Positions 1-44,395 of a stretch of DNA of 64,000 bases are shown piece by piece; the first letter of the stretch is position 1, and every line of letters starts with the position of its first letter. A program made the translations under genes and the position numbers. This DNA is from an uncultured Muribaculaceae bacterium (GTDB taxonomy: Bacteria > Bacillota_I > Bacilli_A > RF39 > UBA660), in assembly GCA_964533935.1 (NCBI GenBank), contig CAZHOG010000003.1:40531-104530 (forward strand), given 5' to 3'. Under the pieces are notes generated by a model, which ran no database searches, was not told the origin of the DNA, and was given only the letters and a program-made list of their open reading frames with translations.

Positions 1-988
1 CATTAGAATATTCTAAATCACTAGTATAATTATTAATTGTATTTCCAATTACCGAAACATTAGGTATTTGATTATTAATCTGCTTAGCAAATGATGTAAA
101 CGATAAATTCATTTCAAACATACCACCAGTAAGAGCAGTTAAATTATCTCGGTCATTTCCTTCTATCCAAATTCTTATTGTAACTTTTTTTATACCGTCA
201 TTTTTTTTATTATCTAAATATGTTAACATGGGATCTCCATTAGCACTTTGAATTTTATGTGAAGCACTAAGATTATCCCTTAAATTATCTATACTTGTTA
301 ATTCATATATTGCAGATTCACTGGCATCTATAAATCTATAATCTTGTTGTTCAACTGAATATAATGTTACAAAACATTTTCCAGTACTACAATCAATTTT
401 ATAATTTTTATTAGGTGCCCATACTAAACTTGCTTTATTGGATACTGCATAATAACCATTATTATATTCATTATCAATAAAAGCTAATCTAGTCGATGCC
501 GCAATTAAATCTCTACTAAAGTTACCTGATGATGATAATCTTTCTACTTCTGTGCCTAATAAATCATTTTCATCTGTACCAGTAGCTGGTAATACGTAGG
601 AAGAATCTTCTAAAAATACCCCAACATTACCAGATGATTTAAACCATACATCAAATTCTAAATAATCTTTATTTGCTGTAGCTCTTTTAAAAGTAACAGG
701 TGTTCCATCATCACGTTTACTTGTTGCTATATAAAAATTAACACCATCACCCGTTATTTCGTGGTCAAAGGAATAATCATTAGTAAAATCAAGAGATAAT
801 TCATTACTCCATTCTTCCCCATCTAATGAAATCAATAAATCACTATACGAATTCGTTCTTAAAACTAAATCATTTGCTTTTATTTCATTATTTTTATTTA
901 ACCATGCATATGCTGCAAGTGCAATTGATGCAATAATTACTAACAATCTAAAAGCAATTAATAATACATTTTTTCTCTCTTTAGTCAT
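1..988 (-). CDS. Secreted or membrane-anchored beta-rich protein with TasA/camelysin-like features, partial (C-terminus lies beyond window start)
   Basis: Absent from the ORF track because it runs off the window. I hand-translated the minus strand from the ATG at 988..986 and it stays open to position 2 (~329 codons): MTKERKNVLLIAFRLLVIIASIALAAYAWLNKNNEIKANDLVLRT...DVWFKSSGNVGVFLE...IRIWIEGNDRDNLTALTGGMFEMNLSF. The basic-hydrophobic N-terminus ending AAYAW resembles SipW-type signals. Its ATG overlaps the TAA of the upstream gene (TAATG). Confidence 0.6.
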   Translation of the reverse strand, partial: MTKERKNVLLIAFRLLVIIASIALAAYAWLNKNNEIKANDLVLRTNSYSDLLISLDGEEWSNELSLDFTNDYSFDHEITGDGVNFYIATSKRDDGTPVTFKRATANKDYLEFDVWFKSSGNVGVFLEDSSYVLPATGTDENDLLGTEVERLSSSGNFSRDLIAASTRLAFIDNEYNNGYYAVSNKASLVWAPNKNYKIDCSTGKCFVTLYSVEQQDYRFIDASESAIYELTSIDNLRDNLSASHKIQSANGDPMLTYLDNKKNDGIKKVTIRIWIEGNDRDNLTALTGGMFEMNLSFTSFAKQINNQIPNVSVIGNTINNYTSDLEYSN

Positions 989-2097
989 TAATTCACCAAA
1001 AATTCTAATGCTTTTTTATTTGAATTATTAAACTTATCTATTTCTTTATTAAATATTTTTGCTATTTTGTCTTCTCTTTTTTTCTTTTCAGAATAAATAT
1101 TTTTAAATTCACTATTTATTAAAGATTTAAAAGATTTTTCATTATATTTTTCATTATTTTCTATAAAATCTTTTATTATTCTTCTTATATAATATTTTTT
1201 AATATTTGATGAAGGTGAATTTTTACCATTAAGAATCAAATAATCCAATAAGAAAGCTTCATTCATATTATCTCTTGCAACAGATTCATCTTCATAATCT
1301 TTTGAATCACTTTCTTCTATTTTATCTTTAACATTATATTGTTCGATAAATTCCCATAATTCCAATGCTTTTTGAAAGTTTGGATTTTTTAAGATAACAT
1401 TTGTTTTTCTAATTGGAGATTTAACCATCATAGCATGTGCAGCCATTAAATCTTTTATAAAAGCACTTTTCATAAAGTCTGCAATAATAAATTGAATTCT
1501 TTCAACTCTTTCTGAAAGATCTAATCCTTTAGGATCTTTTCCAACTAAATCTTCAAAATATGAACTTTCAAAATTAATATCTATTTTAACTTTTTCTTTT
1601 CCTACTTTAGTAACACCAGAATAATTAATATTCTTATTTATTTTACAATTTGAACCTTCTTTGGTTAATTCTTTTCTTTTTGATATAAACATTTGTAGAT
1701 TCAATAATAATGAATATATAAATCTATTTTCGTACATATCAAAACTTTCTTCTTTATTTATATTCAAAACTTTAGAAGGAGTTATTGTTCCTTTTTTTTC
1801 ATCAAATTCCTGAATTAAATAAGTATGAGTAGCTAAATGTTTGATACTTTCTTCAGTAATCTTTTTAGCCTTTTCAACCGGAACAACTTCTTCTTCTTGC
1901 ATGATAAATCTTTTTGGATTTCTAATAATTGCATCAAGATACTCAACAGTTTCTTCAGTTTTATCCAACCAGCTATAATCAAATTCAACTTTTCGATAAT
2001 CTGTTTTAACTTTAAGTTTAGCTTTATTATTTTCTAAAAATTCTTGTTTAACAAATGAATCAACATTATCTAAATATTTTTCTAAATTATTATTCAT
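988..2097 (-). CDS. McrC-like / DUF2357-like partner protein with no recognisable PD-(D/E)xK nuclease domain
   Basis: 369-aa ORF 11 nt downstream of the McrB-like gene. It has the DMYENRFIYSLL motif I associate with the DUF2357 N-terminal region of McrC-family proteins. The C-terminal half is low-complexity and K/E-rich, with no obvious D...(D/E)xK motif. Confidence 0.45.
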   Translation of the reverse strand: MNNNLEKYLDNVDSFVKQEFLENNKAKLKVKTDYRKVEFDYSWLDKTEETVEYLDAIIRNPKRFIMQEEEVVPVEKAKKITEESIKHLATHTYLIQEFDEKKGTITPSKVLNINKEESFDMYENRFIYSLLLNLQMFISKRKELTKEGSNCKINKNINYSGVTKVGKEKVKIDINFESSYFEDLVGKDPKGLDLSERVERIQFIIADFMKSAFIKDLMAAHAMMVKSPIRKTNVILKNPNFQKALELWEFIEQYNVKDKIEESDSKDYEDESVARDNMNEAFLLDYLILNGKNSPSSNIKKYYIRRIIKDFIENNEKYNEKSFKSLINSEFKNIYSEKKKREDKIAKIFNKEIDKFNNSNKKALEFLVN

Positions 2098-2108
2098 ATA
2101 TCATCATC

Positions 2109-3647
2109 CTACATTAATTTTTTAAGTCTATTTAAATAAGCCTTACATTCATTCATATTTTCTTTGCCAAATAAACCATCTAAAAATTTTATAAATCCAT
2201 CAATTTCATCACGAATAAATGATAGGTTTAATTGTTCAAATTTACGTAATATTTTTTTAGCAATAACATAATCTAAACCATCAATTTCTTTTCCACCACA
2301 AGCAACATAAACAGGAATAAATTCATTAATATGTTTAACAATACGATTACCAAAAGCTAATCTAAAATGTTCAATAACATAGTTATCCATTTGTTCAAGT
2401 TTATCTAATAGTTCTTGTCCAACTTTATATTTTTCTTTAGCATCAGCAAAAAGACCTTCTAAATACTTGCTACTTATTTGATATCCTTCAGTTACTGGAG
2501 CGTCAAAGTATTCTCCTTTATCATTTATATCTATTGGCATAGCACGGTCATAAACCTTATCTGTAACCATGAATGTTGAATCATCGTTATTGATTGTACC
2601 AATGTACCACATATTATCAGGAATTTTTAGTTTTCCATCAGTTAATTTCTTCGGATCATCTGGCCATACATTAGGAACCAAATCAATAACCCATTCATCT
2701 CTTGATGGCATTTCTAGAATAGATAACATTTCGGCAAAATAATATTCAACACGAGCTATGTTCATTTCATCTAGAATAGTTAAATAAACAATATCTTTAT
2801 AACTAGCTTCATACATTTTCATTAATACTTCAGTTTCATTAAATTTCTTTGTAAATTCATTAAAGTATCCAAATAATTCCGTACGATCACGCCAAGAAGG
2901 TTGAACTGATGCAATAATTGCATCATTTTTCAAAAATTTACCCCATGCATATGGAAGAGATGTTTTACCAGTACCAGAAATACCTTGTAATATAACAAGT
3001 CTTGTTGATGCAAGTGAACTTACAAATAATCTAATAATATCAACTTTATAATATAACTTCATTTTAGAAGCAGCAAAATTTCTAAATGTTTCACAAAGTT
3101 CTTCTAAAGTAAAAGTATTATGTAAATCTTCAGGAACATAGTCTGCCATTGCTTTATCAACTTCACTTAATTTAAAGAATCTACCACTAAATTCTGTTTT
3201 AGCTTTTTTCTCTTCAGGATTAGCATCATCTCCAAGATCTTCAATTTCTGAAGACTCACCAGGTTTTAATCCTAATTGACTAACCTTCATTGCCATAATT
3301 TTATCTTTTTCAGTAGTTAATTTTAATACAGATCTATTTAAATCAGCTACTTCTTCTAATAAACTTTCTTGGTCAACTAAAGATTTTCTAACTCTAACTA
3401 ATTTTCTAATTAATAAAAATAATATAAAAATTATTAATGCTATTAATGCAACAAAAACTAGTACTACTAATGCAACTAGAATCCATCCAGCTCCATGAAT
3501 ATCGCCACTATATCCTTTAATTATATTTGCATAAGCCTTAAAATTAAAGATTTGCATAATACCTAATCCTATATTTTTTACAATCGTAATTAAGCCTCCA
3601 AAAAATTGAGACATAAAATCAAATAAAAATCTTACAAAGAAATCCAT
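2109..3647 (-). CDS. Membrane-anchored, coiled-coil McrB-family AAA+ (AAA_5) GTPase
   Basis: Walker A LQGISGTGKTS. Walker B plus the McrB-type segment LTILDEMNIARVEYYFAEMLSILE. NxxD signature in YIGTINNDDSTF. N-terminal ~80 aa are hydrophobic (WILVALVVLVFVALIALIIFILFLLI), followed by a heptad-like stretch (SLVDQESLLEEVADLNRSVLKLTTEKDKIMAMKVSQL). Confidence 0.7.
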   Translation of the reverse strand: MDFFVRFLFDFMSQFFGGLITIVKNIGLGIMQIFNFKAYANIIKGYSGDIHGAGWILVALVVLVFVALIALIIFILFLLIRKLVRVRKSLVDQESLLEEVADLNRSVLKLTTEKDKIMAMKVSQLGLKPGESSEIEDLGDDANPEEKKAKTEFSGRFFKLSEVDKAMADYVPEDLHNTFTLEELCETFRNFAASKMKLYYKVDIIRLFVSSLASTRLVILQGISGTGKTSLPYAWGKFLKNDAIIASVQPSWRDRTELFGYFNEFTKKFNETEVLMKMYEASYKDIVYLTILDEMNIARVEYYFAEMLSILEMPSRDEWVIDLVPNVWPDDPKKLTDGKLKIPDNMWYIGTINNDDSTFMVTDKVYDRAMPIDINDKGEYFDAPVTEGYQISSKYLEGLFADAKEKYKVGQELLDKLEQMDNYVIEHFRLAFGNRIVKHINEFIPVYVACGGKEIDGLDYVIAKKILRKFEQLNLSFIRDEIDGFIKFLDGLFGKENMNECKAYLNRLKKLM

Positions 3648-4502: not shown

Positions 4503-4531
4503 TTGATATTATAAATCAAGTTTGTTAAAAT
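4503..4531 (+). promoter_or_regulatory. Candidate promoter of sRNA copy 1
   Basis: TTGATA (4503-4508), 17-nt spacer, TAAAAT (4526-4531). Confidence 0.45.
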
Positions 4532-4537
4532 CAAATT

Positions 4538-4618
4538 GTGAGAAGCAAAAAGTCTTCGGACTAGATGCTTAACACTATGTTAGGTCATCTTTATTCATAA
4601 GAATAAAGATGTTTTTTT
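4538..4618 (+). ncRNA. Candidate antitoxin-type small RNA, copy 1
   Basis: Starts ~7 nt after the -10 box. Contains AGTC-TTCG-GACT (UUCG-type tetraloop hairpin), AGATG...CATCT enclosing TAACA-CTA-TGTTA, then an 11-bp terminator stem CATCTTTATTC/GAATAAAGATG (4586-4611) and T7 (4612-4618). It is convergent with the small ORF, ending 5 nt before the ORF stop codon. Exact 5' end not determined. Confidence 0.5.
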
Positions 4619-4623
4619 ATACT

Positions 4624-4704
4624 TTAGATTAATTTAAAAACTAATACTAAAAGTATAAAAATTATAATAAGTAATAAAAGTACTAAAAAATCTTTTTTAC
4701 CCAT
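4624..4704 (-). CDS. 26-aa hydrophobic peptide, candidate type I toxin, copy 1
   Basis: Hand-translated as MGKKDFLVLLLLIIIFILLVLVFKLI. AAGGAG RBS lies 8 nt upstream. Basic N-terminus followed by a single TM-length hydrophobic helix. Below the ORF-track size cutoff. Confidence 0.5.
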   Translation of the reverse strand: MGKKDFLVLLLLIIIFILLVLVFKLI

Positions 4705-4803
4705 ATAAATCACTCCTTAGAATTATTTAATAATCCCCCTGAATAATTCGTCCGACATTTTTAGAGTGATAAACATCTTTTCTTCTTGTTTCTCGAGAAA
4801 TGT

Positions 4804-4847
4804 ATTATACATATTTCTTTTTTTCTTAACAAGTGATTCGACAAAAC
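4804..4847 (-). promoter_or_regulatory. Candidate promoter of toxin mRNA copy 1, with upstream Spo0A-box-like element
   Basis: Minus strand: GTTTTGTCGAATC (4847..4835, contains TGTCGAA), then TTGTTA (-35, 4832..4827), a 17-nt spacer ending in TG, then TATAAT (4809..4804). Confidence 0.45.
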
Positions 4848-4891
4848 ATTACAAAATAAATCCTAAAATATTATTAAAATATAAATTAATG

Positions 4892-4920
4892 TTGAAAAGC
4901 AATAATTATTTTGTTAAAAT
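4892..4920 (+). promoter_or_regulatory. Candidate promoter of sRNA copy 2
   Basis: TTGAAA (4892-4897), 17-nt spacer, TAAAAT (4915-4920). Confidence 0.45.
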
Positions 4921-4926
4921 TAATTT

Positions 4927-5006
4927 GTGAGAAGCAAAAAGTCTCCGGACTAGATGCTTACCACTAGTGGTGGCATCTTTATTCAACAGAATAAAGATGT
5001 TTTTTT
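4927..5006 (+). ncRNA. Candidate antitoxin-type small RNA, copy 2
   Basis: Same architecture as copy 1: AGTC-TCCG-GACT, AGATG...CATCT enclosing the palindrome CCACTAGTGG, terminator stem 4974-4999 and T7 at 5000-5006. Confidence 0.5.
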
Positions 5007-5011
5007 ATGCT

Positions 5012-5092
5012 TTAGATTAATTTAAAAACTAATACTAAAAGTATAAAAATTATAATAAGTAAAATTGTGATTAAAAAATCTTTTTTACCCAT
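5012..5092 (-). CDS. 26-aa hydrophobic peptide, candidate type I toxin, copy 2
   Basis: Hand-translated as MGKKDFLITILLIIIFILLVLVFKLI, with the same RBS context as copy 1. Confidence 0.5.
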   Translation of the reverse strand: MGKKDFLITILLIIIFILLVLVFKLI

Positions 5093-5191
5093 ATAAATCA
5101 CTCCTTAGAATTATTAAATAATCCCCCTGAATAATTCGTCCGATATTTTTAGAGTGATAAACATCTTTTTTTCTTGCTTCTCGAGAAATGT

Positions 5192-5234
5192 ATTATACAT
5201 ACCTCTTTTTTTCTTGCAAGCGATTCGACAAAAC
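5192..5234 (-). promoter_or_regulatory. Candidate promoter of toxin mRNA copy 2, with upstream Spo0A-box-like element
   Basis: Minus strand: GTTTTGTCGAATC (5234..5222), TTGCAA (5219..5214), a 16-nt spacer ending in TG, then TATAAT (5197..5192). Confidence 0.4.
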
Positions 5235-5244
5235 ATTACAAAAT

Positions 5245-5272
5245 AAGTTCATGAAATTTATTTTAATGAACT
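5245..5272 (-). terminator. Hairpin at the 3' end of the RT gene (possible terminator)
   Basis: AAGTTCAT / ATGAACTT 8-bp stem spanning the RT stop codon, followed on the minus strand by ATTTTGT. Confidence 0.35.
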
Positions 5273-6406
5273 TATCTTTTTTAGCAAGCTTCCACAACTT
5301 CCCCATTTAAAATGTCCGTAATATCCAGACATTTCATTTATGTATTCCTTTTTATTTATATTATTTAACCTCAAACAATTGTCTAAATACTTTAATTTCC
5401 TATTAAATCTTTTCTTACAGTCATTTTTCACTTTCATAATAGCCTTATTATTAATAATAAAATATTTATATCCTAAAAAATCAAGACCATTATTTATATT
5501 AGAAATAATGGTCTTTTTATTATTTAATTTCAACTTATATTTGCTAAGAATTTCATTTATATCTTTTAAGCACTCTTTAAGATATTCTTTATTGTCATGA
5601 ATAAGTATTCCATCATCCATATATCTTACATAATATTTAATTTGTAATACTTCTTTTATATAATAATCTAATTCATTTAAATATAATATTGCTATTATCT
5701 GACTGGTCATGTTGCCAATTGGAAATCCATGACCAGTGGCATATAATGTAACATCTTTAATCTCATCTATCTTCTTAGTTTTTTCAGTATCACTTATATT
5801 CAAATTTTTAATTCTTTTTTCTTCCTGTAATTTTAACTTATTTATAGATTCATTAACATATTTACAATCAGTGGAATCAACGATTTTATTTACTAATTCT
5901 AAATCATCATTATCTTTAATCTTCTTAGCAAATAAATCTTTAACTATTTCATGACTTATACTATAAAAATACTTACTAATATCAAATTTTAAATAATATA
6001 TATCTTTATTATTCTTTTTCATCTCATTTAAATATTTCTTTATAGCTATAAGCCCTTGGTGGGTACCTTTATTTTTTCTAGTAGCTATATTCATATCAAT
6101 AAATGTTTTATCAAATACATCAACTAAAAAATAATTAGCCACCAAGTGATTAATTATCTTATCATTAATATTTTGACTCATAATAAGTCTTAACTTAGGT
6201 TCATGAATAAAAAAAATATTATACTTACCTACTTCATAATTTTTATGTTCTAAAACATTCCTAATCAAAAAAATATTTTCAGAATAATATTCTTCAAATA
6301 ATTCAACTTTTCTTTTATTTTTTGTTTTAGAACAGATTAAGTTGCTATATTTTATAATATTATCTAATTCACATATTTTTGGATATAAATTATTCACTCT
6401 TTTCAT
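5258..6406 (-). CDS. DGR-type reverse transcriptase
   Basis: EPKLRLI (motif 1/2 region), YYLKFDISKYF (motif 3), GFPIGNMTSQ (I/LGNxxSQ signature of DGR RTs, where group II and retron RTs have QGxxxSP), RYMDDGIL (YxDD), LDFLGYKY (motif 7). No maturase or endonuclease extension. Confidence 0.9.
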   Translation of the reverse strand: MKRVNNLYPKICELDNIIKYSNLICSKTKNKRKVELFEEYYSENIFLIRNVLEHKNYEVGKYNIFFIHEPKLRLIMSQNINDKIINHLVANYFLVDVFDKTFIDMNIATRKNKGTHQGLIAIKKYLNEMKKNNKDIYYLKFDISKYFYSISHEIVKDLFAKKIKDNDDLELVNKIVDSTDCKYVNESINKLKLQEEKRIKNLNISDTEKTKKIDEIKDVTLYATGHGFPIGNMTSQIIAILYLNELDYYIKEVLQIKYYVRYMDDGILIHDNKEYLKECLKDINEILSKYKLKLNNKKTIISNINNGLDFLGYKYFIINNKAIMKVKNDCKKRFNRKLKYLDNCLRLNNINKKEYINEMSGYYGHFKWGSCGSLLKKISSLK

Positions 6407-6725
6407 AACTCATCCACCCAAATATCATTTTATGAAGTTCTGTCAAATACTTCGAATAATTAACATATTTTTTCTTTGTTAATATTTCCTTATCATAACT
6501 TTGTTTCAAATAAAAATTAACCATTTTTATTTGAACTATAATTTCCTTTTTATAATTCTTATCCTGTGTTAAATTGGCACGATATATATTTTCTAATATA
6601 TCATACAATGCATTTAATATTCTATTTTTTAATACTATATATTCATTAGGAAAATTATAAATATTTTTTTCTATATAGTTCAAAGTTTTTTTAGCACTTC
6701 GTACAATCATTAAATTATCTTCCAT
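6390..6725 (-). CDS. avd: Avd-like accessory variability determinant (small helical-bundle protein)
   Basis: Small basic helical ORF between TR and RT that overlaps the RT start by 17 nt. The ORF track starts it at 6773, but the ATG at 6725 is preceded by GGAGGA and gives ~111 aa (MEDNLMIVRSAKKTLNYIEKNIYNFPNEY...). Confidence 0.7.
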   Translation of the reverse strand: MEDNLMIVRSAKKTLNYIEKNIYNFPNEYIVLKNRILNALYDILENIYRANLTQDKNYKKEIIVQIKMVNFYLKQSYDKEILTKKKYVNYSKYLTELHKMIFGWMSYEKSE

Positions 6726-6896
6726 ATCTTCCTCCACAAAAAAATAGTAGCTATAGAAATAATTCCGGTTCACTTTGTGTTACTAAAGCCTTATTTCTTC
6801 TACTATATATTTTTTACACTTTCGTGTATGGGATATAACTTGTTTTTTTGTCTTACAATTATATACCAAGTATATAAAACATAGTTATCATGAAAT

Positions 6897-7000
6897 CTGG
6901 GCGAACTCCAAAGTTATTAGTATTGTTGTAATTATTGTTGAAGTTGCCATTGCTATTAACATTCCAAACATTATTAGTATTATTTAAAGAGCCGGACCAA
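6897..7000 (-). repeat. DGR template repeat (TR), 104 nt
   Basis: The non-coding copy of the VR. On the coding strand it reads TGG TCC GGC TCT TTA AAT AAT ACT AAT AAT GTT TGG AAT GTT AAT AGC AAT GGC AAC TTC AAC AAT AAT TAC AAC AAT ACT AAT AAC TTT GGA GTT CGC CCA G. 15 of 34 codons are AAY, the hallmark of DGR templates. Confidence 0.85.
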
Positions 7001-7124
7001 ACCAAAAAGAGAATCGAAAAGGCCACTATCACCTACTAGTTATATCCCGTGTCATGCCTACACGCAAGCGTTCGGCATAGATCCAGGCAGCAATGAATTG
7101 TCACCTAGTCGCAATCAAAGATTG

Positions 7125-8258
7125 CTAGATTTCAGATGATGAGATGCTGATAACTGGGCGAACTCCGAAGTAAGAAGTATTGTAGTAAGTGTGGCGGTAG
7201 AAGGAGCCAGAGCTATGAACATCCCACACAGTACTAGTAGTATTCAAAGAGCCGGACCAATAAGAAGTAGAATAAATAAATGCTGGAGCTGATGTACAGA
7301 AATTGTTACCTGATGAACATCCTAGCGTTTCCAATTCTTCTTTTGTTATAAGACTTGCACTATTTATTGTTGCTCCTAGTTCTTCTAATTTTGTTTTATA
7401 TGTATTTACATATCCTTCTACTATACTTCCTGCATATTCTGAAGAAGTGGATGAAAAAGCTGTAGTACCATTATATATATATATATCTTGTCCTGATACG
7501 TATCCTACCATTGTACTATCTTGCATATCTGTAGCTTCATCTCCATAGGGGGTATAAGTACTCGTTGAGTTATCAAATGTCCCACCAACATATAAATTAT
7601 ATTGAGCTAACGCTTTAATATTTGTGTCATCATTAGATATTACATAAAAGCTTTCAGTTCCTGTAGTTATCAAATCACCTATGTCAGCTTTATTATTGCC
7701 ATTTTCATCTGTTGTTAATGTCCATATGCTTGCAACTGGTGTTTCAACTTTTAATGTATCTACTCCTAGAGTTGCACTGAAAGTCTTACCTTGATATGCA
7801 TTTTGATTTTCTTCTTTATATTTGTAACTTACTGTTAATGTATATTCTTTTGTTACTCCTGATGCTATTGATACATTTGTCATAACATAGTCTTTTCCAG
7901 TATTTGTTTCTGGTAAAACAGTTTCACTTACCACACTACCAGTTTCATCAGATAATGTGTATACTAAATCTTCATTGAATTCATTTGTAATATTTTGTAA
8001 ATAAATATTATAATCTACTGCTATAGTACTGGTATTTTCTACAGTAAATGTTTTTGTAAATGAATCTCCTGGAACTATTCCAGTTACATTTATTTCTTGG
8101 CCTCCTGTATATACTAGTGTTAACTCATTAGTTTTAATCACTGTTTCTGTTTTATTATTTTCTTTTACTCTTGCACTATAGTATGCATATGATGCACCAG
8201 CTACAAGAGCTACCACTGCAATAATACTTACTACAATTATTGCTATTTTCTTTTTCAT
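7125..8258 (-). CDS. DGR target protein: SipW-type signal, TasA/camelysin-like domain, DUF1566/C-type-lectin-like variable C-terminus
   Basis: N-terminus MKKKIAIIVVSIIAVVALVAGASYAYYSA (compare TasA/CalY ...GGGTFAYFSD). PGDSFTKTFTVEN and QNAYQGKTFSATLGV match TasA-family landmarks. C-terminus has SLITKEELETLGC...STSYWSGS...YFGVRPVI (DUF1566-like pattern), and the VR covers WSGS...GVRP. Confidence 0.85.
   Translation of the reverse strand: MKKKIAIIVVSIIAVVALVAGASYAYYSARVKENNKTETVIKTNELTLVYTGGQEINVTGIVPGDSFTKTFTVENTSTIAVDYNIYLQNITNEFNEDLVYTLSDETGSVVSETVLPETNTGKDYVMTNVSIASGVTKEYTLTVSYKYKEENQNAYQGKTFSATLGVDTLKVETPVASIWTLTTDENGNNKADIGDLITTGTESFYVISNDDTNIKALAQYNLYVGGTFDNSTSTYTPYGDEATDMQDSTMVGYVSGQDIYIYNGTTAFSSTSSEYAGSIVEGYVNTYKTKLEELGATINSASLITKEELETLGCSSGNNFCTSAPAFIYSTSYWSGSLNTTSTVWDVHSSGSFYRHTYYNTSYFGVRPVISISSSEI
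7154..7260 (-). repeat. DGR variable repeat (VR), 107 nt, last ~35 codons of the target gene
   Basis: Identical to the TR at both ends (TTGGTCCGGCTCTTT... and ...GGAGTTCGCCCAG). Internal differences fall almost entirely at TR adenines. Confidence 0.85.
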
Positions 8259-22479: not shown

Positions 22480-23904
22480 ATGGAAAAACTTATACAAAGA
22501 ATTAAAGAAGAATTTGCTGATACTCCTGACATAGTTTTTAGAAAAATAAGTACAGGTATTAATAAATATCTTTATGTAATATATTTAGAAACTGTTTCAA
22601 GTAGTGATAAAATAAATGATTATATATTAAAAAATCTTACTTTTTTTATTAATAAAAAGAATATAAGAAATTTAAATAAATTATTACCATCTCCTCATGT
22701 TATACCAATAACAAAACATGATGAAATAGAATACTATTTAACTAATGGTTTTACCATCGTATTATATGAAAGTAATATATATGCTGTAGAAACTAAAGCC
22801 GATATAAATAGAAGCATCAGTCCTCCTGAAGTAGAACAAGCCCTATATGGTCCAAAAGATGCATTTAATGAAAACTATCAAATGGATATAGGACTAATAA
22901 AAAGAAGAATTAAAAGCAGCCATTTAAAAATAATTGAAAAAAACATAGGTAGAATAAGTAATACAAAAGTTGGTTTATTATATATTGATAATATTGCTGA
23001 AGATAAGAATGTAAAAGAAATTAAAAATATTTTAAATAAAATAGATGTTGATGCAATTTTAGATTCTGGTCAACTAGCACAATATTTTGTTGAAAACAAA
23101 AGTACTTTTCCTACTGTCACTTCAACCGAAAGACCTGATAAAGTTGCCAAAGGTTTATTAGAAGGAAAAATAGCTTTAGTTGTTGATACATCCCCATACG
23201 TTTTATTACTGCCTGCTTTTTTTGGAGATTTCATAAACCCTATTGTTGATAACTATAATAAAAATATTAAAATAAATTTTTTAAGAATACTTAGAATTTC
23301 CTGTTTTTTCTTAACAATATTAGTACCTGCATATTATATAGCTGTAATAAATTATAACCAAGAAACATTACCAATAAGCTTACTTATAAACTTTGCAACT
23401 CAACGATCCGAAGTGCCCTTTCCTTCTATTTTTGAGGCATTAATAATGTTATTTATTTGTGAAATGTTACGTGAAAGTGATATAAGATTTCCTAGTTCAT
23501 ATGGAAGTGCAATTTCAATTCTTGGTGCTTTAATTTTAGGTGAAGCTGCAGTTAGTGCTGGAATCGTGTCCCCAATAATGATTATTATTATTGCCTTTAC
23601 TTTTATAACAAGTCTTATGTTTGTTGAATTTGAAATAGTTAATGCAATAAGACATTTTAGATTTATTTTTTTATTACTAGCTTCGTTCTATGGTTTATAT
23701 GGAATATTTATCGGCATGATTCTTTTCTTAGTCAAACTATGTAGTGTTAAAACATTACACAATCCATATTTCTACCCTATTGCACCATTCAATAAAAATT
23801 ATTTTAATAAAATGTTTTTAAAAAGCGATTCTACAAAAGATATGAAAAGAAGTAATTTATTAGCTAAACAAAATATAACTAAACAAAGGAATGATTTTCT
23901 ATGA
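22480..23904 (+). CDS. Spore germinant receptor subunit A (GerA family)
   Basis: GPKDAFNENYQMDIGLIKRRIK, VTSTERPDKVAKGLLEGK, C-terminal TM bundle. Confidence 0.85.
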   Translation: MEKLIQRIKEEFADTPDIVFRKISTGINKYLYVIYLETVSSSDKINDYILKNLTFFINKKNIRNLNKLLPSPHVIPITKHDEIEYYLTNGFTIVLYESNIYAVETKADINRSISPPEVEQALYGPKDAFNENYQMDIGLIKRRIKSSHLKIIEKNIGRISNTKVGLLYIDNIAEDKNVKEIKNILNKIDVDAILDSGQLAQYFVENKSTFPTVTSTERPDKVAKGLLEGKIALVVDTSPYVLLLPAFFGDFINPIVDNYNKNIKINFLRILRISCFFLTILVPAYYIAVINYNQETLPISLLINFATQRSEVPFPSIFEALIMLFICEMLRESDIRFPSSYGSAISILGALILGEAAVSAGIVSPIMIIIIAFTFITSLMFVEFEIVNAIRHFRFIFLLLASFYGLYGIFIGMILFLVKLCSVKTLHNPYFYPIAPFNKNYFNKMFLKSDSTKDMKRSNLLAKQNITKQRNDFL

Positions 23905-24989
23905 AAAAAATTATAGTATTATTAGTTTTAATATTTAGTTGTACTGCTTGTTACGATTACAATGAATTAAATGATCTATCACTAGTATCTGGAATAGCTA
24001 TTGATTATGATGAACAAAATGATAAATTTATAACTACTTTTGAAATTTTAAATGACGAAAAAAGCAGTGATAACGGAAGTTCTCAAAGTAAATCGTTTTA
24101 TGTCAAAGGAAGTGGAAAAACAATAGCGGAAAGTTTTAATAATTCTGCATTAGAAATTCCTAAAACACCATATTATGCACATTTAAAAGTATTAGTAATA
24201 TCAGAAAAAATTGCTAAAAATAATTCTAATGATATTATTGATTACATTTTAAGATACCCAACTATTTCTAATATTTTTTATTTAGCAATTAGTAAAGAAA
24301 TTAATGCCCAAGATATTTTAAGATACAAAACAGAAGAAGATAAAATAGTTTCTGATGAAATATATAATTTAATAGACAAAAATGAATTAGGTACAAATAT
24401 ATCTATGAAAGTTAAATTTGAAGATTTTATTTCTAAATTAAAAAATAAATATGAAGATCCTTATGTTTCAACCATAAGTATCAAAGATGATAATTTAAAA
24501 TTAGATGGTTTAGCTATTTGGAAAAATAATAAAATGACTGATATTTTAAATGATAAAAATAGCCAGACACTCACAATTTTATTAGGAGAAAATAAAAATG
24601 CATCTTATCGAATAAAATGTAATGATGAAAAATACGTAGTTATTAATATTTATAATCAAAAAATAAAAACTGATATTACAGCTAAAAAAGCTAAAATTAT
24701 TATTAATGCTGAAGCAAGAATTATTGAAAACGGGTGTAATTTAAACTTAAAAGATTCTAATACTTATAAAAAATTAAGTGATAAATTTTCTAAAAGTATG
24801 AATAAAAATGGATATGAATTAATAGATATACTACAAAATAAAAATTCTGATCCATTAAGTATTGCCTATTCTTATTATAAAAAAACTAAAAAAAATCTTG
24901 ATTATAAAAATTTAAAGTTCGATATTAATTCAAAAATTAATATAAATAAAAATGGTTTGATTTTTGAGGTGACAAATGATAACAAATAG
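23901..24989 (+). CDS. Spore germinant receptor subunit C (Ger(x)C lipoprotein)
   Basis: Lipobox LIFSCTAC. Overlaps the A subunit by 4 nt. Typical size. Confidence 0.75.
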   Translation: MKKIIVLLVLIFSCTACYDYNELNDLSLVSGIAIDYDEQNDKFITTFEILNDEKSSDNGSSQSKSFYVKGSGKTIAESFNNSALEIPKTPYYAHLKVLVISEKIAKNNSNDIIDYILRYPTISNIFYLAISKEINAQDILRYKTEEDKIVSDEIYNLIDKNELGTNISMKVKFEDFISKLKNKYEDPYVSTISIKDDNLKLDGLAIWKNNKMTDILNDKNSQTLTILLGENKNASYRIKCNDEKYVVINIYNQKIKTDITAKKAKIIINAEARIIENGCNLNLKDSNTYKKLSDKFSKSMNKNGYELIDILQNKNSDPLSIAYSYYKKTKKNLDYKNLKFDINSKININKNGLIFEVTNDNK

Positions 24990-26001
24990 ACAAAAAAATT
25001 TCTTAGTATATTTCTGTACAAGATCATTTTTTTTAGGAATAGGTTTTTCACTTATTTTCAAAAAATGTAATAATGACTCATGGATTACTTTTATTATTGG
25101 AACCATACTTGGAATTGGTTTTTGTAAATTGTTTAAATATATTTTAGATAAAAAAGGCAAAAAAAAATTATCTGAGTATCTAAATGAACTTGGAATAACT
25201 GGTAAAATAGTTAGAATACTCTTAATACTATTATCAATAATAATATTAAATGAATTATTATTTGTTTTACAAATATTTGCAAAATCATTTTTCTTAATTA
25301 ATTCTAAAACTTTCTTTTTAATTATTCCAATAGTATATTTAATAGTATTTATTGCATTTAAAGGTTATAATCTTTTGTGCTATATATGTGAATGTTTATT
25401 TCCAGTAGCTATAACAATATTTGTGCTTGCTTTATATGCCCTAATTTTTAAAGTTGACTTAACTAATCTACAACCATACTTTAATACAAATATACTAAAT
25501 TTCTTTCAAGGAATTATATTTTATTTTTCATTATCTACTACTCCATTATTATTATTATTAGACATGGATTTTGAAGATTCAAATATATTAAAAAGTTATA
25601 TTGGTTCATCATCTACATTAATAATACTTGCTATTTTACTAAGTGGAATTCTTGGTCAAATACTTGTTAATATTTATAGATTCCCGGAATATATGATTCT
25701 AAAAGAAATAAAAATGTTTAACTTTATTGAAAATATTGAAAATATAGTTTCACTAATTTGGTTAATTGATCTATTTGTAGTGCTTTCCCTATCAGCAACA
25801 TTTCTAAAAAACATACTACCAAAAAAATATAACAATTACTCATTCTTAACAATAATTACATTAGTTGTCATTTCTATTTGCTATATCTTTGGAAATAATT
25901 ATATTAATGATTTATTCATATATAAATATATACCTTATTTTTTATTAATATTAAACATAATAATAATTCTAATATTAACATTAAAAAAGCAAAAAACTTA
26001 G
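24976..26001 (+). CDS. Spore germinant receptor subunit B (permease-like)
   Basis: ~10-TM protein overlapping the C subunit. A-C-B order as in gerK-type operons. Confidence 0.75.
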   Translation: MITNRQKNFLVYFCTRSFFLGIGFSLIFKKCNNDSWITFIIGTILGIGFCKLFKYILDKKGKKKLSEYLNELGITGKIVRILLILLSIIILNELLFVLQIFAKSFFLINSKTFFLIIPIVYLIVFIAFKGYNLLCYICECLFPVAITIFVLALYALIFKVDLTNLQPYFNTNILNFFQGIIFYFSLSTTPLLLLLDMDFEDSNILKSYIGSSSTLIILAILLSGILGQILVNIYRFPEYMILKEIKMFNFIENIENIVSLIWLIDLFVVLSLSATFLKNILPKKYNNYSFLTIITLVVISICYIFGNNYINDLFIYKYIPYFLLILNIIIILILTLKKQKT

Positions 26002-26024
26002 AATACTTCTAAGCTTTTTATTTT
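25997..26024 (+). terminator. Terminator after the ger operon
   Basis: CTTAGAA-TAC-TTCTAAG followed by CTTTTTATTTT. Confidence 0.5.
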
Positions 26025-27179
26025 AAATTAATTCAGTAGCTGATATTGTAATAACAGGACGAACTCCAAAGTTATCAGTACGAATGTAATTTTTGATATT
26101 AAATGATCCTGAACTACCAACAGACCATATAACATTAGGATTATCAGTTGTAGATATTGTCCAATAAGAAGTTGTAAATACAAATGCTAATGCTGAAGAA
26201 CAACTATAAGATTCTTCAAAACATCCCAATGATTCTAATTCTTCTTTTGTTATAAGGCTTGCACTATCTATTGTTGCACCGAATTCTTCTAATTTTGTTT
26301 TATATGTGTTTACATATTCTTCAACTATGCTTCCTGAATAATCACTGTAATTTGTTCCTTTTTGTTCATCTGATGAAAATGCCGTAGTTCCTTTTCTTAA
26401 ACTTTGGCCAGATATATATCCTAACATTGAACTATCTTGTATTCCTGTTGCTTCTTCTCCATATTCTGTCCAATTAGTTCCATCATATGATCCACCAACA
26501 TATAAATTATATTGTGCTAATGCTTTTATATTCGTATCATCATTAGATATTACATAAAAGCTTTCTGTTTTATATGTTATTAAATCACCTACATCTGCAT
26601 GGCCATTGCCATTTTCATCATTTGTTAATGTCCATGTAATTGGTTCTTCTATCTTTACTGTATCACTCCTAGTGTTGCACTAAAAGATGCCCCTTGATAT
26701 GCATTTTGATCATCATCAGAATATTTATAAGTTATTTTTAATGTATATTCTTTTGTAATACTAGCTGCTATATTTATTGAAGCCATTAAATATTCTTTTC
26801 CAGTATTACTAACTGGTAACACTGTTTCCTCAATCACATTACCAGTTTCATCAGATAATGTATACACTAAATCTTCATTAAACTCATTTGTAATATTTTC
26901 TAAATAAATATTATAATCTACTGCTATATTACTTGTATTTTCTACTGTAAATGTTTTTGTAAATGAATCTCCTGGAATTATATCAGATACATTTATTTCT
27001 TGCCCTCCTGTATAAATTAAAGATAACTCATTAGTTTTAATAACTGTTTGAGTATTATTTATCATTCTTACATTTGCACTAAAGTATGCATAAGTAATTC
27101 CTATAACAGAAAACACTAATAATAACATACCAACTATTATTAAGCTTGTTTTTCTTTTCATGATTATTCCTACTTTCAA
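26023..27179 (-). pseudogene. Frameshifted paralogue of the DGR target (TasA-like plus DUF1566-like)
   Basis: ORFs 26655..27179 and 26023..26427 match the N- and C-termini of the 7125..8258 product. I traced the downstream frame open from 26679 to 26023. Comparison with the intact gene shows a 1-nt deletion (GTATC-ACTCC versus GTATCTACTCC) near 26660-26670. Confidence 0.75.
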
Positions 27180-43867: not shown

Positions 43868-44395
43868 TTAGATTTTATATAATTTTGTATTTTTTCTTGT
43901 AACATAGTATACACCACCAGCAAGAGCAACACCTACAGCTATTACTGCATATGGCATAAAATTACCTGTTTTAGGATTTTCTGTTGTTTTAGTTAATTCT
44001 ACAGTTTTAGGAACTTGTAAACAAGTAAATACTACACTACAATTTTGACCAGCAGTACCTTTACTTATAAATTCTAAAGAACCAATAGTAAATTCTGAAG
44101 CAGTTTCAGCAACAGAGTTACTAAAATAAATTTGATCTCCAGATACATTTACAGACCATCCATTATTTCCTATTTCAGACCCTTGAACAAATTCAGCATT
44201 TTCAAGTTTCATTGAAGCACTAAGTTCATTCATAGTATTTCCACCAGTCTGATTAACTACAATATTAACTTTAAAGCGTCCATTTGATTCTTCTACTTTA
44301 TTATAAGAAACAGATGTTGTTGCAGCATTTGCTTTAATTGGTAATGCTATTAATAAAGCAATAGCAATCATTCCTAAATATTTTTTAATTTTCAT
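43868..44395 (-). CDS. Surface protein with NPKTG sorting signal (sortase B substrate)
   Basis: Signal peptide ...PIKANAAT. C-terminal NPKTG, then a hydrophobic stretch, then an RKNTK tail. Confidence 0.65.
   Translation of the reverse strand: MKIKKYLGMIAIALLIALPIKANAATTSVSYNKVEESNGRFKVNIVVNQTGGNTMNELSASMKLENAEFVQGSEIGNNGWSVNVSGDQIYFSNSVAETASEFTIGSLEFISKGTAGQNCSVVFTCLQVPKTVELTKTTENPKTGNFMPYAVIAVGVALAGGVYYVTRKNTKLYKI

What the first reader, a model, noticed from the sequence alone, without database searches (positions are those of the whole stretch)
5258..8258. Complete DGR diversifying a TasA/camelysin-like secreted protein
The cassette contains an RT with the DGR-specific IGNxxSQ and YMDD motifs, an overlapping Avd-like gene, a 104-nt Asn-codon-rich TR, and a 107-nt VR forming the last ~35 codons of the upstream gene. 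The target is unusual. Its N-terminus and first domain look like the SipW-processed TasA/CalY biofilm-fibre family. Its C-terminus is a DUF1566/C-type-lectin-like ligand-binding tip. This implies a hypervariable adhesive tip on a fibre- or spore-surface-type protein in a spore former. I am not aware of this combination being characterised.
Basis: partly seen in the sequence, partly recalled or inferred. Interest (0 to 1): 0.85.

Follow-up and report, generated by a model that had tools for sequence, protein, structure and literature searches.

The report
DGR diversifying a TasA-like surface protein
This is a real, sequence-intact diversity-generating retroelement in an uncultured spore-forming gut Bacilli bacterium; it rewrites the lectin-like tip of a secreted protein whose front half resembles the TasA biofilm-fibre subunit, a target type I could not find described, although the retroelement itself is an ordinary member of a known kind.

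Summary
On the minus strand lie, in order:
- a 377-aa target gene (7125-8258) with a 107-nt VR (7154-7260);
- a 104-nt TR (6897-7000) with 15 AAY codons;
- a conserved spacer RNA;
- an Avd gene that overlaps a DGR-type RT carrying IGNMTSQ and YMDD.

Of 21 TR/VR substitutions, 18 fall on TR adenines (P = 3e-6). The other three are synonymous third-position changes. VR also carries one extra codon.

The target's N-terminal domain passes Pfam's threshold for Peptidase_M73 (camelysin/TasA), and its best PDB fold match is the TasA fibre. The C-terminal domain (pLDDT 96.5) matches DUF6273 and DUF1566 folds, the lectin-like class that DGRs usually diversify.

The element is not a one-off. Related RTs (38-48% identity) occur in hundreds of gut Bacilli/"Tenericutes" MAGs. 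Many have clean adenine-only TR/VR pairs, and their targets start with TasA-like or type IV pilin-like modules. Two relative pairs with identical TRs differ almost only at TR-adenine sites, so the clade is active.

For this element, activity is unproven. The only other assemblies on record have an identical VR. Fibre formation and SipW processing are inferred. No SipW gene lies in the window, but a GerA operon supports spore formation.

Verdict: a standard DGR with an undescribed target class, of moderate interest.

The parts
7125..8258 (-). Target gene (377 aa). It has its own RBS (AGGAG) and a promoter-like region after the pyruvate kinase terminator.
   Evidence: ORF; upstream sequence; 1019 homologues.
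8187..8258 (-). N-terminal hydrophobic signal/anchor helix ending in the conserved motif G-A-S-Y-A-Y-Y-S (SipW-type signal peptide, borderline hit).
   Evidence: TIGR04088 at 18.2 bits against a cut-off of 19. G21, Y24 and A29 are nearly invariant across homologues. The model has a helix over residues 2-33.
7758..8186 (-). TasA/camelysin-like beta-sandwich domain (about aa 25-167). It includes a conserved but low-confidence N-terminal segment (aa 27-46) that could act as a donor strand.
   Evidence: PF12389 at 41.3 bits against GA 22.5. Foldseek top PDB hit is the TasA fibre 8aur_A, E = 3.1e-5. pLDDT is below 50 for residues 27-46.
7128..7733 (-). C-terminal ligand-binding domain (aa 176-377) with a DUF6273/DUF1566 (Lcl_C)-like, lectin-like fold. 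It carries the VR.
   Evidence: AF2 model pLDDT 96.5. BFVD matches: DUF6273 at 8.4e-5 and DUF1566 at 4.6e-3. 4 of 31 homologues hit PF07603 and 3 hit PF19789.
7154..7260 (-). Variable repeat (VR), 107 nt, codons ~333-368.
   Evidence: 18 of 21 substitutions against TR fall at TR adenines; one extra codon.
7154..7166 (-). GC-rich 3' end of VR (GGAGTTCGCCCAG), identical in TR (6897-6909). Candidate IMH/IMH* element.
   Evidence: Direct reading. The function is inferred by analogy with phage BPP-1.
6897..7000 (-). Template repeat (TR), 104 nt, non-coding, with 15 AAY codons in the VR frame.
7032..7049 (-). Short motif CGGGATATAACTAGTAGG 5' of TR. Variants of GGG(A/T)WA..CT.. recur 10-45 nt upstream of TR in about 30 related loci, whatever the gene order.
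   Evidence: The spacer is GC-enriched (0.44 against 0.26 for the locus). No function was tested.
6755..6884 (-). Conserved spacer RNA directly 3' of TR: an ACAAG..TATCC single strand, a covarying hairpin (ACAC-GAAA-GTGT) and an A-run. It is probably the cDNA-priming 'Sp' element of the DGR RNA.
   Evidence: Rfam RT-14 at 31.4 bits (GA 48.1; E = 0.015 locally). The same element sits at the same place in 23-27 related loci, with 20 different stem sequences.
6390..6773 (-). Avd accessory gene. Likely start at 6725 (111 aa). It overlaps the RT start by 17 nt.
   Evidence: PF22296 bAvd at 38 bits (GA 40); NF033474 E = 2.7e-12. A 111-aa gene call carries a bAvd hit on the independent contig L086.
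5258..6406 (-). DGR reverse transcriptase (382 aa).
   Evidence: RVT_1 E = 6e-20. IGNMTSQ and YMDD are present, and all residues invariant among six clade relatives are kept. It is 38-48% identical to RTs flanked by adenine-only TR/VR pairs.

Best explanation
Window 5258-8258 (minus strand) is a chromosomal diversity-generating retroelement of an uncultured, AT-rich (25% GC), probably spore-forming gut Bacilli bacterium.

Shown by the sequence: the gene order is target(VR) - TR - spacer RNA - avd - RT.

Inferred by analogy with characterised DGRs: a transcript covering TR and the conserved spacer is bound by the RT-Avd complex. It is reverse-transcribed with misincorporation opposite template adenines. 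The cDNA then replaces VR, using the shared GC-rich 3' end (GGAGTTCGCCCAG) as the homing boundary. This can recode up to 15 Asn (AAY) codons in the last beta-strands of the target's C-terminal domain.

Shown for the target protein: it has three parts.
1. A hydrophobic N-terminal signal with a conserved SipW-type motif.
2. A TasA/camelysin-like beta-sandwich.
3. A 200-aa DUF6273/DUF1566-type lectin-like domain that carries the VR.

Most likely function (inferred): the protein is exported and displayed on the cell or spore surface. It may be a subunit or tip of a TasA-like donor-strand fibre built with paralogous N-domain proteins. The hypervariable lectin-like face would bind changing ligands such as glycans, host or phage surfaces, or other microbes.

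The cassette is intact, but this VR has probably not been rewritten recently.
For: DGR parts:
- ORFs and repeats.
- 18 of 21 substitutions at TR adenines, P = 3.2e-6, and 15 AAY codons.
- RT motifs and full conservation of invariant residues.
- Avd hits.
- RT-14-like spacer RNA conserved with covarying hairpins in related loci.

Clade context:
- 416 RT relatives in genome contigs, nearly all gut Bacilli/Tenericutes MAGs.
- About 33 of the best 80 loci have TR/VR pairs with at least 85% adenine-site mismatches, mostly in the same VR-TR-RT order.
- Relatives with identical TRs differ in VR at 18 adenine sites against 2 other (L077/L078) and at 15 against 0 (L030/L037), against 2-9% flank divergence.

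Target:
- PF12389 above threshold, plus TasA and SipW-signal models.
- Foldseek top hit is the TasA fibre.
- C-domain model pLDDT 96.5 with DUF6273/DUF1566 matches.
- Lcl_C hits in homologues.
- Hypervariability of exactly the VR stretch across homologues.

Other context:
- Flanking genes are pyruvate kinase and guanylate kinase, so the setting is chromosomal and not phage.
- Viral RT relatives are only 27-39% identical.
- GerA operon.
Against: - Three non-adenine (synonymous) TR/VR differences and a 3-nt length difference show drift since the last homing, or an imperfect event.
- The only other public assemblies of this locus are 100% identical, VR included. These are Logan contig SRR8925773_57779, listed as present in 3 samples. 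VR assembles without a break.
- No variant of the target above 67% identity exists among 5.8 billion proteins, so activity of this element is unproven.
- No SipW-type peptidase lies in the 64-kb window, and the SipW-signal model misses its cut-off by 0.8 bits.
- Direct PDB matches of the C-domain to C-type lectins are not significant (E about 1).
- Profile searches of PDB sequences found neither TasA nor any DGR variable protein.
- Fibre assembly was not modelled.
Confidence: 0.8

Rival explanations
1. Dormant or decaying DGR. The cassette reads as intact but no longer rewrites this VR. The adenine pattern would be a fossil of past homing, and the target now evolves by ordinary mutation.
For: - Three synonymous non-adenine differences and a one-codon indel between TR and VR.
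- VR is identical in the independent Logan contig, which is recorded in 3 samples, and assembles without breaks.
- A neighbouring paralogue (26023-27179) is frameshifted in this assembly. Its VR-equivalent is only 66% like TR, with many non-adenine differences, and is identical in a second sample.
Against: - RT, Avd, TR, the spacer RNA and the IMH-like end are all intact, and all clade-invariant RT residues are kept.
- 13 of 15 AAY codons are changed in VR.
- Clade relatives with 1-3 non-adenine mismatches still show adenine-site divergence between samples.
- The three samples may not be independent of the MAG's own source.
Confidence: 0.3
2. The target is not a polymerising fibre subunit. It would be a monomeric, membrane-anchored (uncleaved signal-anchor) or wall-associated receptor. 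The TasA-like sandwich would serve only as a stalk holding the variable lectin domain away from the cell.
For: - The model shows one long N-terminal helix, residues 2-33.
- The SipW-signal model is just below its cut-off, and no SipW gene lies in the window.
- Most cellular DGR targets are described as membrane-anchored binders (PMC8144416).
- Foldseek TM-scores to the TasA fibre are low (0.24/0.35).
Against: - The junction motif G-x-[ST]-Y-A-[YF]-[YFW]-S is nearly invariant across the family, as expected for a processing site.
- The segment after it (aa 27-46) is highly conserved yet unstructured in the monomer model, like the TasA donor strand, residues 28-38 (PMC9674648).
- N-domain-only 207-aa paralogues are abundant in related MAGs.
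- SGSMEP-type (SipW-like) peptidases lie within 5 kb of related DGRs in L015, L077 and L078.
Confidence: 0.35
3. A phage- or prophage-borne DGR whose target is a receptor-binding or tail protein.
For: The best structural matches of the C-domain are phage DUF6273/DUF1566 proteins and a 'receptor binding protein'.
Against: - The flanking genes are housekeeping genes: pyruvate kinase, guanylate kinase and a ZIP transporter.
- The target has a bacterial secretion signal and a TasA-like domain.
- Viral RT relatives are only 27-39% identical, against 38-48% for chromosomal MAG relatives.
Confidence: 0.03
4. A chance or ordinary duplicated repeat next to a non-DGR reverse transcriptase such as a group II intron, retron or defence RT.
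For: The NCBIfam models that hit the RT are for group II intron, Drt and retron RTs, all far below their cut-offs.
Against: - Adenine bias with P = 3e-6.
- An Avd gene is present.
- The DGR-specific IGNxxSQ motif is present.
- VR lies at the 3' end of an ORF.
- Relatives have clean adenine-only repeats.
Confidence: 0.01

Closest known systems
Bordetella phage BPP-1 DGR (Mtd / bRT / bAvd / TR-Sp RNA), the prototype
   Same: It shares the RT with the I/LGxxxSQ motif, the Avd partner and an adenine-specific TR-to-VR information flow. VR lies at the 3' end of a ligand-binding protein, and TR and VR share a GC-rich 3' boundary. A structured spacer RNA sits next to TR; Rfam RT-10 is the BPP-1 spacer (PMC5737381).
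   Different: This element is chromosomal, not phage. The order is VR-TR-avd-RT rather than VR-avd-TR-RT. The spacer resembles Rfam RT-14, not RT-10. The target is not Mtd-like. Nothing was tested biochemically here.
Legionella pneumophila DGR / LdtA and the 'category d' DUF1566/CLec2 targets of Wu et al. 2018 (PMC5758913)
   Same: It is a chromosomal DGR diversifying a C-terminal DUF1566-type domain of a surface-exposed protein. The N-terminal export or anchoring module varies.
   Different: LdtA is a Tat-exported lipoprotein of a Gram-negative bacterium. Here the N-terminus is a SipW-type signal plus a TasA-like sandwich. The window protein itself does not reach the Pfam Lcl_C threshold; only its homologues do.
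[quoted passage not shown]
   Same: The concept matches: a gut bacterium uses a DGR to vary the binding tip of a protein belonging to a donor-strand-assembled fibre family (abstract).
   Different: The phylum, fibre family (type V pilins versus TasA-like) and RT clade all differ. Fibre incorporation is experimentally supported there and only inferred here.
Bacillus subtilis TasA/TapA/SipW and Bacillus cereus CalY (Pfam PF12389)
   Same: The N-terminal signal motif and the first beta-sandwich are homologous. The host is a spore former. [quoted passage not shown]
   Different: The sandwich is much shorter (about 140 aa against about 230). It is fused to a 200-aa lectin-like domain that TasA and CalY lack. 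There is no tapA-sipW-tasA operon in the window. No fibre evidence exists for this protein.
Rfam RT-14 RNA (RF02921; Weinberg et al. 2017)
   Same: The 130 nt between TR and avd align end to end with the RT-14 model. They share its unpaired UAUxCC motif, central hairpin and 3' helix.
   Different: The score of 31.4 is below the gathering score of 48.1. The motif had no assigned function. Its placement right after a DGR TR is my observation in this clade only.

Membership tests
Diversity-generating retroelement (DGR) | Reverse transcriptase of the DGR type (motif 4 [I/L/V]GxxxSQ, catalytic YxDD) | tested here: met
   PIGNMTSQ and YVRYMDD are present. All 52 columns invariant among 7 clade RTs are kept. 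RVT_1 E = 6e-20.
Diversity-generating retroelement (DGR) | TR/VR near-repeat whose differences fall at TR adenines | tested here: met
   18 of 21 substitutions are at adenines, P = 3.2e-6. There are also 3 synonymous non-adenine changes and a 3-nt indel.
Diversity-generating retroelement (DGR) | VR lies in the 3' part of a protein-coding target gene; TR is non-coding and near the RT | tested here: met
   VR covers codons 333-368 of 377. TR lies 124 nt upstream of the longest avd ORF (172 nt upstream of the likely avd start at 6725) and about 490 nt upstream of the RT start.
Diversity-generating retroelement (DGR) | Accessory protein Avd | tested here: met
   NF033474 E = 2.7e-12 and PF22296 at 38 bits (GA 40), both full length. 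The scores are below the curated cut-offs, so this is a divergent Avd.
Diversity-generating retroelement (DGR) | Ongoing adenine mutagenesis (VR variants within or between populations) | tested here: inconclusive
   The only other assemblies on record are identical, and two metagenome scans found nothing. The feature is shown for clade relatives L077/L078 and L030/L037. Read-level data could not be examined.
TasA/camelysin family (Pfam PF12389 Peptidase_M73) | Sequence match to the family model above the curated threshold | tested here: met
   41.3 bits against 22.5, residues 1-161 on profile positions 2-182 of 196.
TasA/camelysin family (Pfam PF12389 Peptidase_M73) | TasA-like jellyroll/beta-sandwich fold | tested here: met
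   The top Foldseek PDB hit of the full model is the TasA fibre 8aur_A, E = 3.1e-5, probability 1.00. The TM-scores are low (0.24/0.35) and N-domain pLDDT is about 65-80.
TasA/camelysin family (Pfam PF12389 Peptidase_M73) | SipW-dependent signal peptide and a cognate SipW peptidase | tested here: inconclusive
   TIGR04088 scores 18.2 bits against a cut-off of 19. No SGSMEP-type peptidase lies in the window. Such peptidases occur near related DGRs. The rest of the genome is not available.
TasA/camelysin family (Pfam PF12389 Peptidase_M73) | Polymerisation into fibres by N-terminal donor-strand exchange | not testable with these tools
   There is only indirect support: a conserved but disordered segment at aa 27-46.
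DGR variable-protein C-type-lectin-like fold (DUF1566/Lcl_C, DUF6273) | Sequence match to PF07603 or PF19789 | tested here: not met
   The window protein has no hit at E <= 1. However, 4 of 31 homologues of the domain hit PF07603 (best 4.1e-8) and 3 hit PF19789.
DGR variable-protein C-type-lectin-like fold (DUF1566/Lcl_C, DUF6273) | Structural similarity to members of the fold | tested here: met
   The pLDDT 96.5 model matches DUF6273 proteins (E = 8.4e-5, TM 0.54-0.56) and a DUF1566 protein (4.6e-3) in BFVD. Solved C-type lectins (CD23, CLEC5A, SP-A) appear only at E about 1, so the link to the classical CLec fold is indirect.
DGR variable-protein C-type-lectin-like fold (DUF1566/Lcl_C, DUF6273) | VR maps to the C-terminal strands with a ...W.V...G....(F)GVRPV ending | tested here: met
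   The VR peptide is YWSGSLNTTSTVWDVHSSGSFYRHTYYNTSYFGVRPV. The same frame is conserved, and only the VR positions are hypervariable among homologues.

The most novel reading that the evidence does not exclude
Uncultured gut Bacilli may build Gram-positive surface fibres whose subunits or tips carry DGR-diversified lectin domains. The fibres would be TasA-like donor-strand polymers or, in sister loci, type IV pilin-like filaments. This would be a Gram-positive counterpart of the DGR-varied type V pilus adhesins of Bacteroides. In spore formers such a fibre might decorate spores. The clade's DGR RNA would use a conserved RT-14-like spacer as its priming element, which would give a function to an orphan Rfam motif.
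Probability: 0.3. Interest if true: 0.7.

Novelty: new member of a known kind. Interest (0 to 1): 0.45.

Why it matters
DGRs are the only known natural system of targeted protein hypermutation in bacteria. What they diversify shows which surfaces are under pressure to change.

Here the diversified domain sits on a homologue of the TasA biofilm and spore fibre subunit. Sister elements place it on pilin-like proteins. This suggests that poorly known gut Bacilli vary the binding specificity of surface filaments. It would extend the recent Bacteroides pilus result to Gram-positive, spore-forming bacteria.

The finding also yields a testable set of about 30 loci. These could be used to define the DGR RNA elements of this clade: a motif 5' of TR and an RT-14-like spacer 3' of it.

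The retroelement itself is conventional. Nothing here changes the understanding of DGR mechanism.

Tried and rejected
- Profile searches of PDB sequences with the C-domain alignment and the full alignment found nothing relevant, so fold assignment rests on predicted structures.
- The first TR/VR scan with blastn found nothing, even in the window, because the parameters were too strict. I replaced it with a seed-and-extend scan.
- RNA folding of the VR-TR spacer and the TR-avd spacer gave z-scores of -0.5 and -0.9, which are not significant on their own. RNAalifold on a short MAFFT alignment of the spacer core predicted no pairs because the hairpins were out of register. A per-sequence hairpin count was only modestly above shuffles: 23 of 23 against a mean of 17.7.
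- Rfam at gathering threshold found no RT motif in the window or in 11 related loci. Only sub-threshold RT-14 and RT-17 hits appeared.
- SipW search: NCBIfam on seven small window ORFs, a motif scan and tblastn with SipW-like proteins from L015 and L077 were all negative for the window.
- Population variation: two metagenome pattern scans found nothing. Look-ups of the target, P0011 and P0015 were not on record. RT and Avd look-ups returned only a contig identical to the window.
- I first took the gene upstream of the L001 homologue for pyruvate kinase, which would have implied synteny. That was wrong; there is no synteny.
- A second VR in the window was rejected. The paralogue at 26044-26150 is 66% like TR, with 19 of 36 mismatches at non-adenine positions plus gaps.
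- A phage origin was rejected.

Full report
**1. What is in the sequence**

All features lie on the minus strand.
- A 377-aa ORF at 7125-8258 follows the pyruvate kinase gene and its terminator. It has its own RBS.
- Its codons ~333-368 (7154-7260, 107 nt) are a near-repeat of a non-coding 104-nt segment at 6897-7000.
- A 127-aa ORF follows at 6390-6773. An independent gene call starts it at 6725, giving 111 aa.
- This ORF overlaps by 17 nt a 382-aa ORF at 5258-6406.

Family searches:
- The 382-aa ORF is a reverse transcriptase (RVT_1, E = 6e-20) with PIGNMTSQ and YVRYMDD.
- The small ORF is an Avd. NF033474 gives E = 2.7e-12 and bAvd gives 38 bits. Both matches are full length but below the curated cut-offs.

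**2. The repeat pair**

An in-frame comparison gives 21 substitutions. Eighteen are at TR adenines. TR is 35.6% A, so the binomial P is 3.2e-6.
- TR has 15 AAY codons out of 34, and 13 of them are changed in VR.
- The three non-adenine differences (GTT>GTG, the third base of AAT>CAC, TTT>TTC) are all synonymous third-position changes.
- VR has one extra codon (CGC) inside an AAC-AAT-AAT run.
- Both repeats end in GGAGTTCGCCCAG, then diverge.

The pair shows some drift, or an imperfect homing event, since VR was last written.

**3. RNA elements**

The 130 nt between TR and avd (6755-6884) align end to end with Rfam RT-14. The score is 31.4 bits against a gathering score of 48.1, with E = 0.015 for the local search.

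In 23-27 related DGR loci the same position holds '...GGAA-ACAAG-nTT-TATCC', then a 4-5-bp hairpin, then an A-run. The hairpin has 20 different stem sequences, for example ACAC/GTGT here, CTCT/AGAG, GGG/CCC, GAGT/ACTC and GAAC/GTTC.

Weinberg et al. identified RT-10 as the BPP-1 TR-RT spacer. They guessed that other RT motifs serve DGRs (PMC5737381). I read this element as the clade's spacer (priming) RNA, and it is intact in the window.

A second short motif, GGG(A/T)WA..CT.., recurs 10-45 nt 5' of TR whatever the gene order. Single-sequence folding was not significant.

**4. The target protein**

N-terminal half:
- Residues 1-161 hit PF12389 (camelysin/TasA) at 41.3 bits against a cut-off of 22.5.
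- Residues 1-84 hit the NCBIfam TasA model (E = 7e-6).
- The SipW-cognate signal model scores 18.2 against a cut-off of 19.
- An AlphaFold2 model (pLDDT 79) has an N-terminal helix, a disordered but highly conserved segment (aa 27-46) and a beta-sandwich. Its best PDB match is the TasA fibre 8aur (E = 3.1e-5), although the TM-scores are low.
- In TasA, the residues directly after SipW cleavage (28-38) form the donor strand that polymerises the fibre (PMC9674648). The conserved, disordered segment here is in the same place. That is the basis for the fibre inference, and it is the only basis.

C-terminal half (aa 176-377):
- It models at pLDDT 96.5.
- It has no Pfam hit of its own. Four of 31 homologues hit Lcl_C/DUF1566 and three hit DUF6273.
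- Foldseek finds DUF6273 proteins (E = 8.4e-5, TM about 0.55) and a DUF1566 protein (4.6e-3) among predicted phage proteins.
- In the PDB the best hit is the Thomasclavelia ramosa IgA peptidase (E = 0.035). Classical C-type lectins appear only at E about 1.
- In the homologue alignment, the stretch matching VR is hypervariable between conserved YW..S and FGVRPV anchors.

**5. Genomic and phylogenetic context**

- The window is 24.9% GC.
- The flanking genes are housekeeping genes, and a GerAA/GerAC/GerAB operon at 22480-26001 supports a spore-forming host.
- No SipW-type peptidase is in the window.

RT relatives:
- They number 416 in a one-genome-per-species collection. The best is 48% identical. 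Nearly all are gut MAGs labelled Bacilli, Tenericutes, 'Mycoplasma sp. CAG:776' or Candidatus Faecimonas.
- Viral relatives reach only 27-39% identity.
- My scan found TR/VR pairs with at least 85% adenine-site mismatches in about 33 of the best 80 loci, mostly in the order VR-TR-(avd)-RT. The four closest RTs instead have RT-TR.

Targets of these relatives:
- Their N-termini fall into two kinds. One kind is hydrophobic helices ending in G-x-[ST]-Y-A-[YFW]. A clade-specific HMM of the window's N-domain hits six of these at E = 1e-6 to 2e-16 (L005, L015, L029, L066, L076, L081).
- The other kind is type IV pilin signals, GFTLIELLAV (L004, L009, L034).
- Only the window's target reaches the Pfam PF12389 threshold.
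- SGSMEP-type peptidases lie within 5 kb of the DGRs in L015, L077 and L078.

Among the 120 best target homologues, 95 carry the N-terminal motif, and 13 of those also carry a C-terminal GxRP ending. The TasA-like module is thus a common chassis with varied C-terminal binding domains.

**6. Is it active?**

For the clade, yes.
- L077 and L078 have identical TRs and 97.7% identical flanks. They differ in VR at 18 TR-adenine sites and 2 others.
- L030 and L037 differ at 15 adenine sites and no others.

For this element I could not tell.
- No other target variant above 67% identity exists in the protein collection.
- Logan contigs from SRR8925773 are 100% identical to the window, VR included. One of them is recorded in three samples.
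- VR assembles without a break. The contig end inside the target gene at 8073 coincides with an exact 31-mer shared with a paralogue.
- Two metagenome scans were empty.

Together with the synonymous drift and the indel, this points to a VR that has been stable for some time, even though every DGR part is intact.

**7. Comparison and novelty**

The cassette is a conventional Avd-type DGR with a DUF1566/DUF6273-class VR. That is 'category d' of Wu et al. (PMC5758913).

The closest functional parallel is the set of Bacteroides DGRs that diversify type V pilus adhesins (bioRxiv 10.1101/2024.11.15.621889).

Literature checks:
- I found no paper holding both 'diversity-generating retroelement' and TasA, camelysin or Peptidase_M73.
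- PF12389 does not occur in the held part of the target annotation table of Roux et al., which lists PF07603 338 times.
- A G-type pilin domain in DGR targets has been mentioned before (PMC11661182).

The element is therefore a new member of a known kind, and its target class is undescribed in the literature I could search. Interest is moderate (0.45). It would be higher if fibre assembly and diversification were shown.

Noticed in passing
window 4521-5267: There are two tandem ~388-nt units (93% identical) between gmk and the RT stop. Each looks like a type I toxin-antitoxin module. A 26-aa hydrophobic peptide (MGKKDFL..IIIFILLVLVFKLI, minus strand, inside ORFs 4624-4713 and 5012-5101, RBS AAGGAG) converges with a plus-strand promoter-like site (4503-4531; 4892-4920). 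That site leads into a small RNA ending in a strong terminator (4586-4611 and 4972-5001, each followed by T7). A homologous peptide and terminator lie upstream of the target homologue in L001. The Logan contig L086 ends inside this repeat.
   Followed up: partly
window 26023-27179 (minus strand): A second paralogue of the target lies directly after the GerA operon, with a 1-nt deletion near 26662 (GGAGTG-ATACAG). The same DNA in another sample (L087, ERZ4240422) has the extra G and an intact 379-aa gene (P0002). Its VR-equivalent (26044-26150) is only 66% like TR, with many non-adenine differences, and is identical in both samples. The 5' 230 nt of L087 match a third paralogue (P0015) instead. 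This could be recombination between paralogues or a chimeric low-coverage assembly.
   Followed up: partly
window 22480-26001 (plus strand): A GerAA (474 aa), GerAC (362 aa) and GerAB-like permease (341 aa) spore germination receptor operon. It indicates a spore-forming host despite the small-genome, 25% GC, 'Tenericutes-like' look of the clade.
   Followed up: yes
window 6755-6884 and 7032-7049; L002-L081 next to their TRs: Conserved RNA elements flank the TR in this RT clade. One is an RT-14-like spacer with a covarying hairpin 3' of TR. The other is a GGG(A/T)WA..CT motif 5' of TR, present whether TR lies before avd-RT or after RT. L009 gives a weak RT-17 hit at the equivalent place.
   Followed up: partly
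L004 3105-5147, L009 3129-5099, L034 260-2302: The four closest RT relatives use the order target-...-RT-TR. In the three loci that hold a full-length target (L004, L009, L034), the DGR diversifies 656-680-aa proteins with type IV pilin (GFTLIELLAV, N_methyl) N-termini. In this clade, pilin-like and TasA-like modules are alternative chassis for the variable domain.
   Followed up: partly
L015 10313-11470; L077 8913-9434; L078 8678-9199: Archaeal/ER-type signal peptidase I candidates with the SGSMEP motif (SipW-like) lie 4-5 kb downstream of related DGR RTs. The one in L015 is fused to a long polytopic N-terminal region. They were not confirmed with a family model.
   Followed up: no
proteins P0077, P0036 and about 60 similar (581 aa); P0015 (545 aa, same contig as the window): The abundant TasA-like-N-domain proteins of related MAGs end in other lectin-like C-termini. 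Read by eye, these are '...GISGLRLVLTK', which resembles the FGE-sulfatase-type ending, and '...NVFPAFYLKAEV..GTGTINDPFIIE', which resembles the endings of other clade DGR targets. This suggests a family-wide design of TasA-like stalk plus binding domain. A 207-aa N-domain-only form is followed 3 nt later by an uncharacterised 173-aa secreted protein (L082 8627-9148).
   Followed up: no
window 988-3647 (minus strand): A DUF2357 (McrC-like) protein of 369 aa sits next to a 512-aa protein with a P-loop 'GISGTGKTS' and no Pfam hit at 1e-4. This may be an McrBC-like restriction pair just beyond gmk.
   Followed up: no
window 43868-44395 (minus strand): The 175-aa ORF resembles, by eye, the L082 175-aa protein (L082 5681-6208), which ends in an NPKTG-type sorting signal and lies next to a sortase gene in L082.
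   Followed up: no
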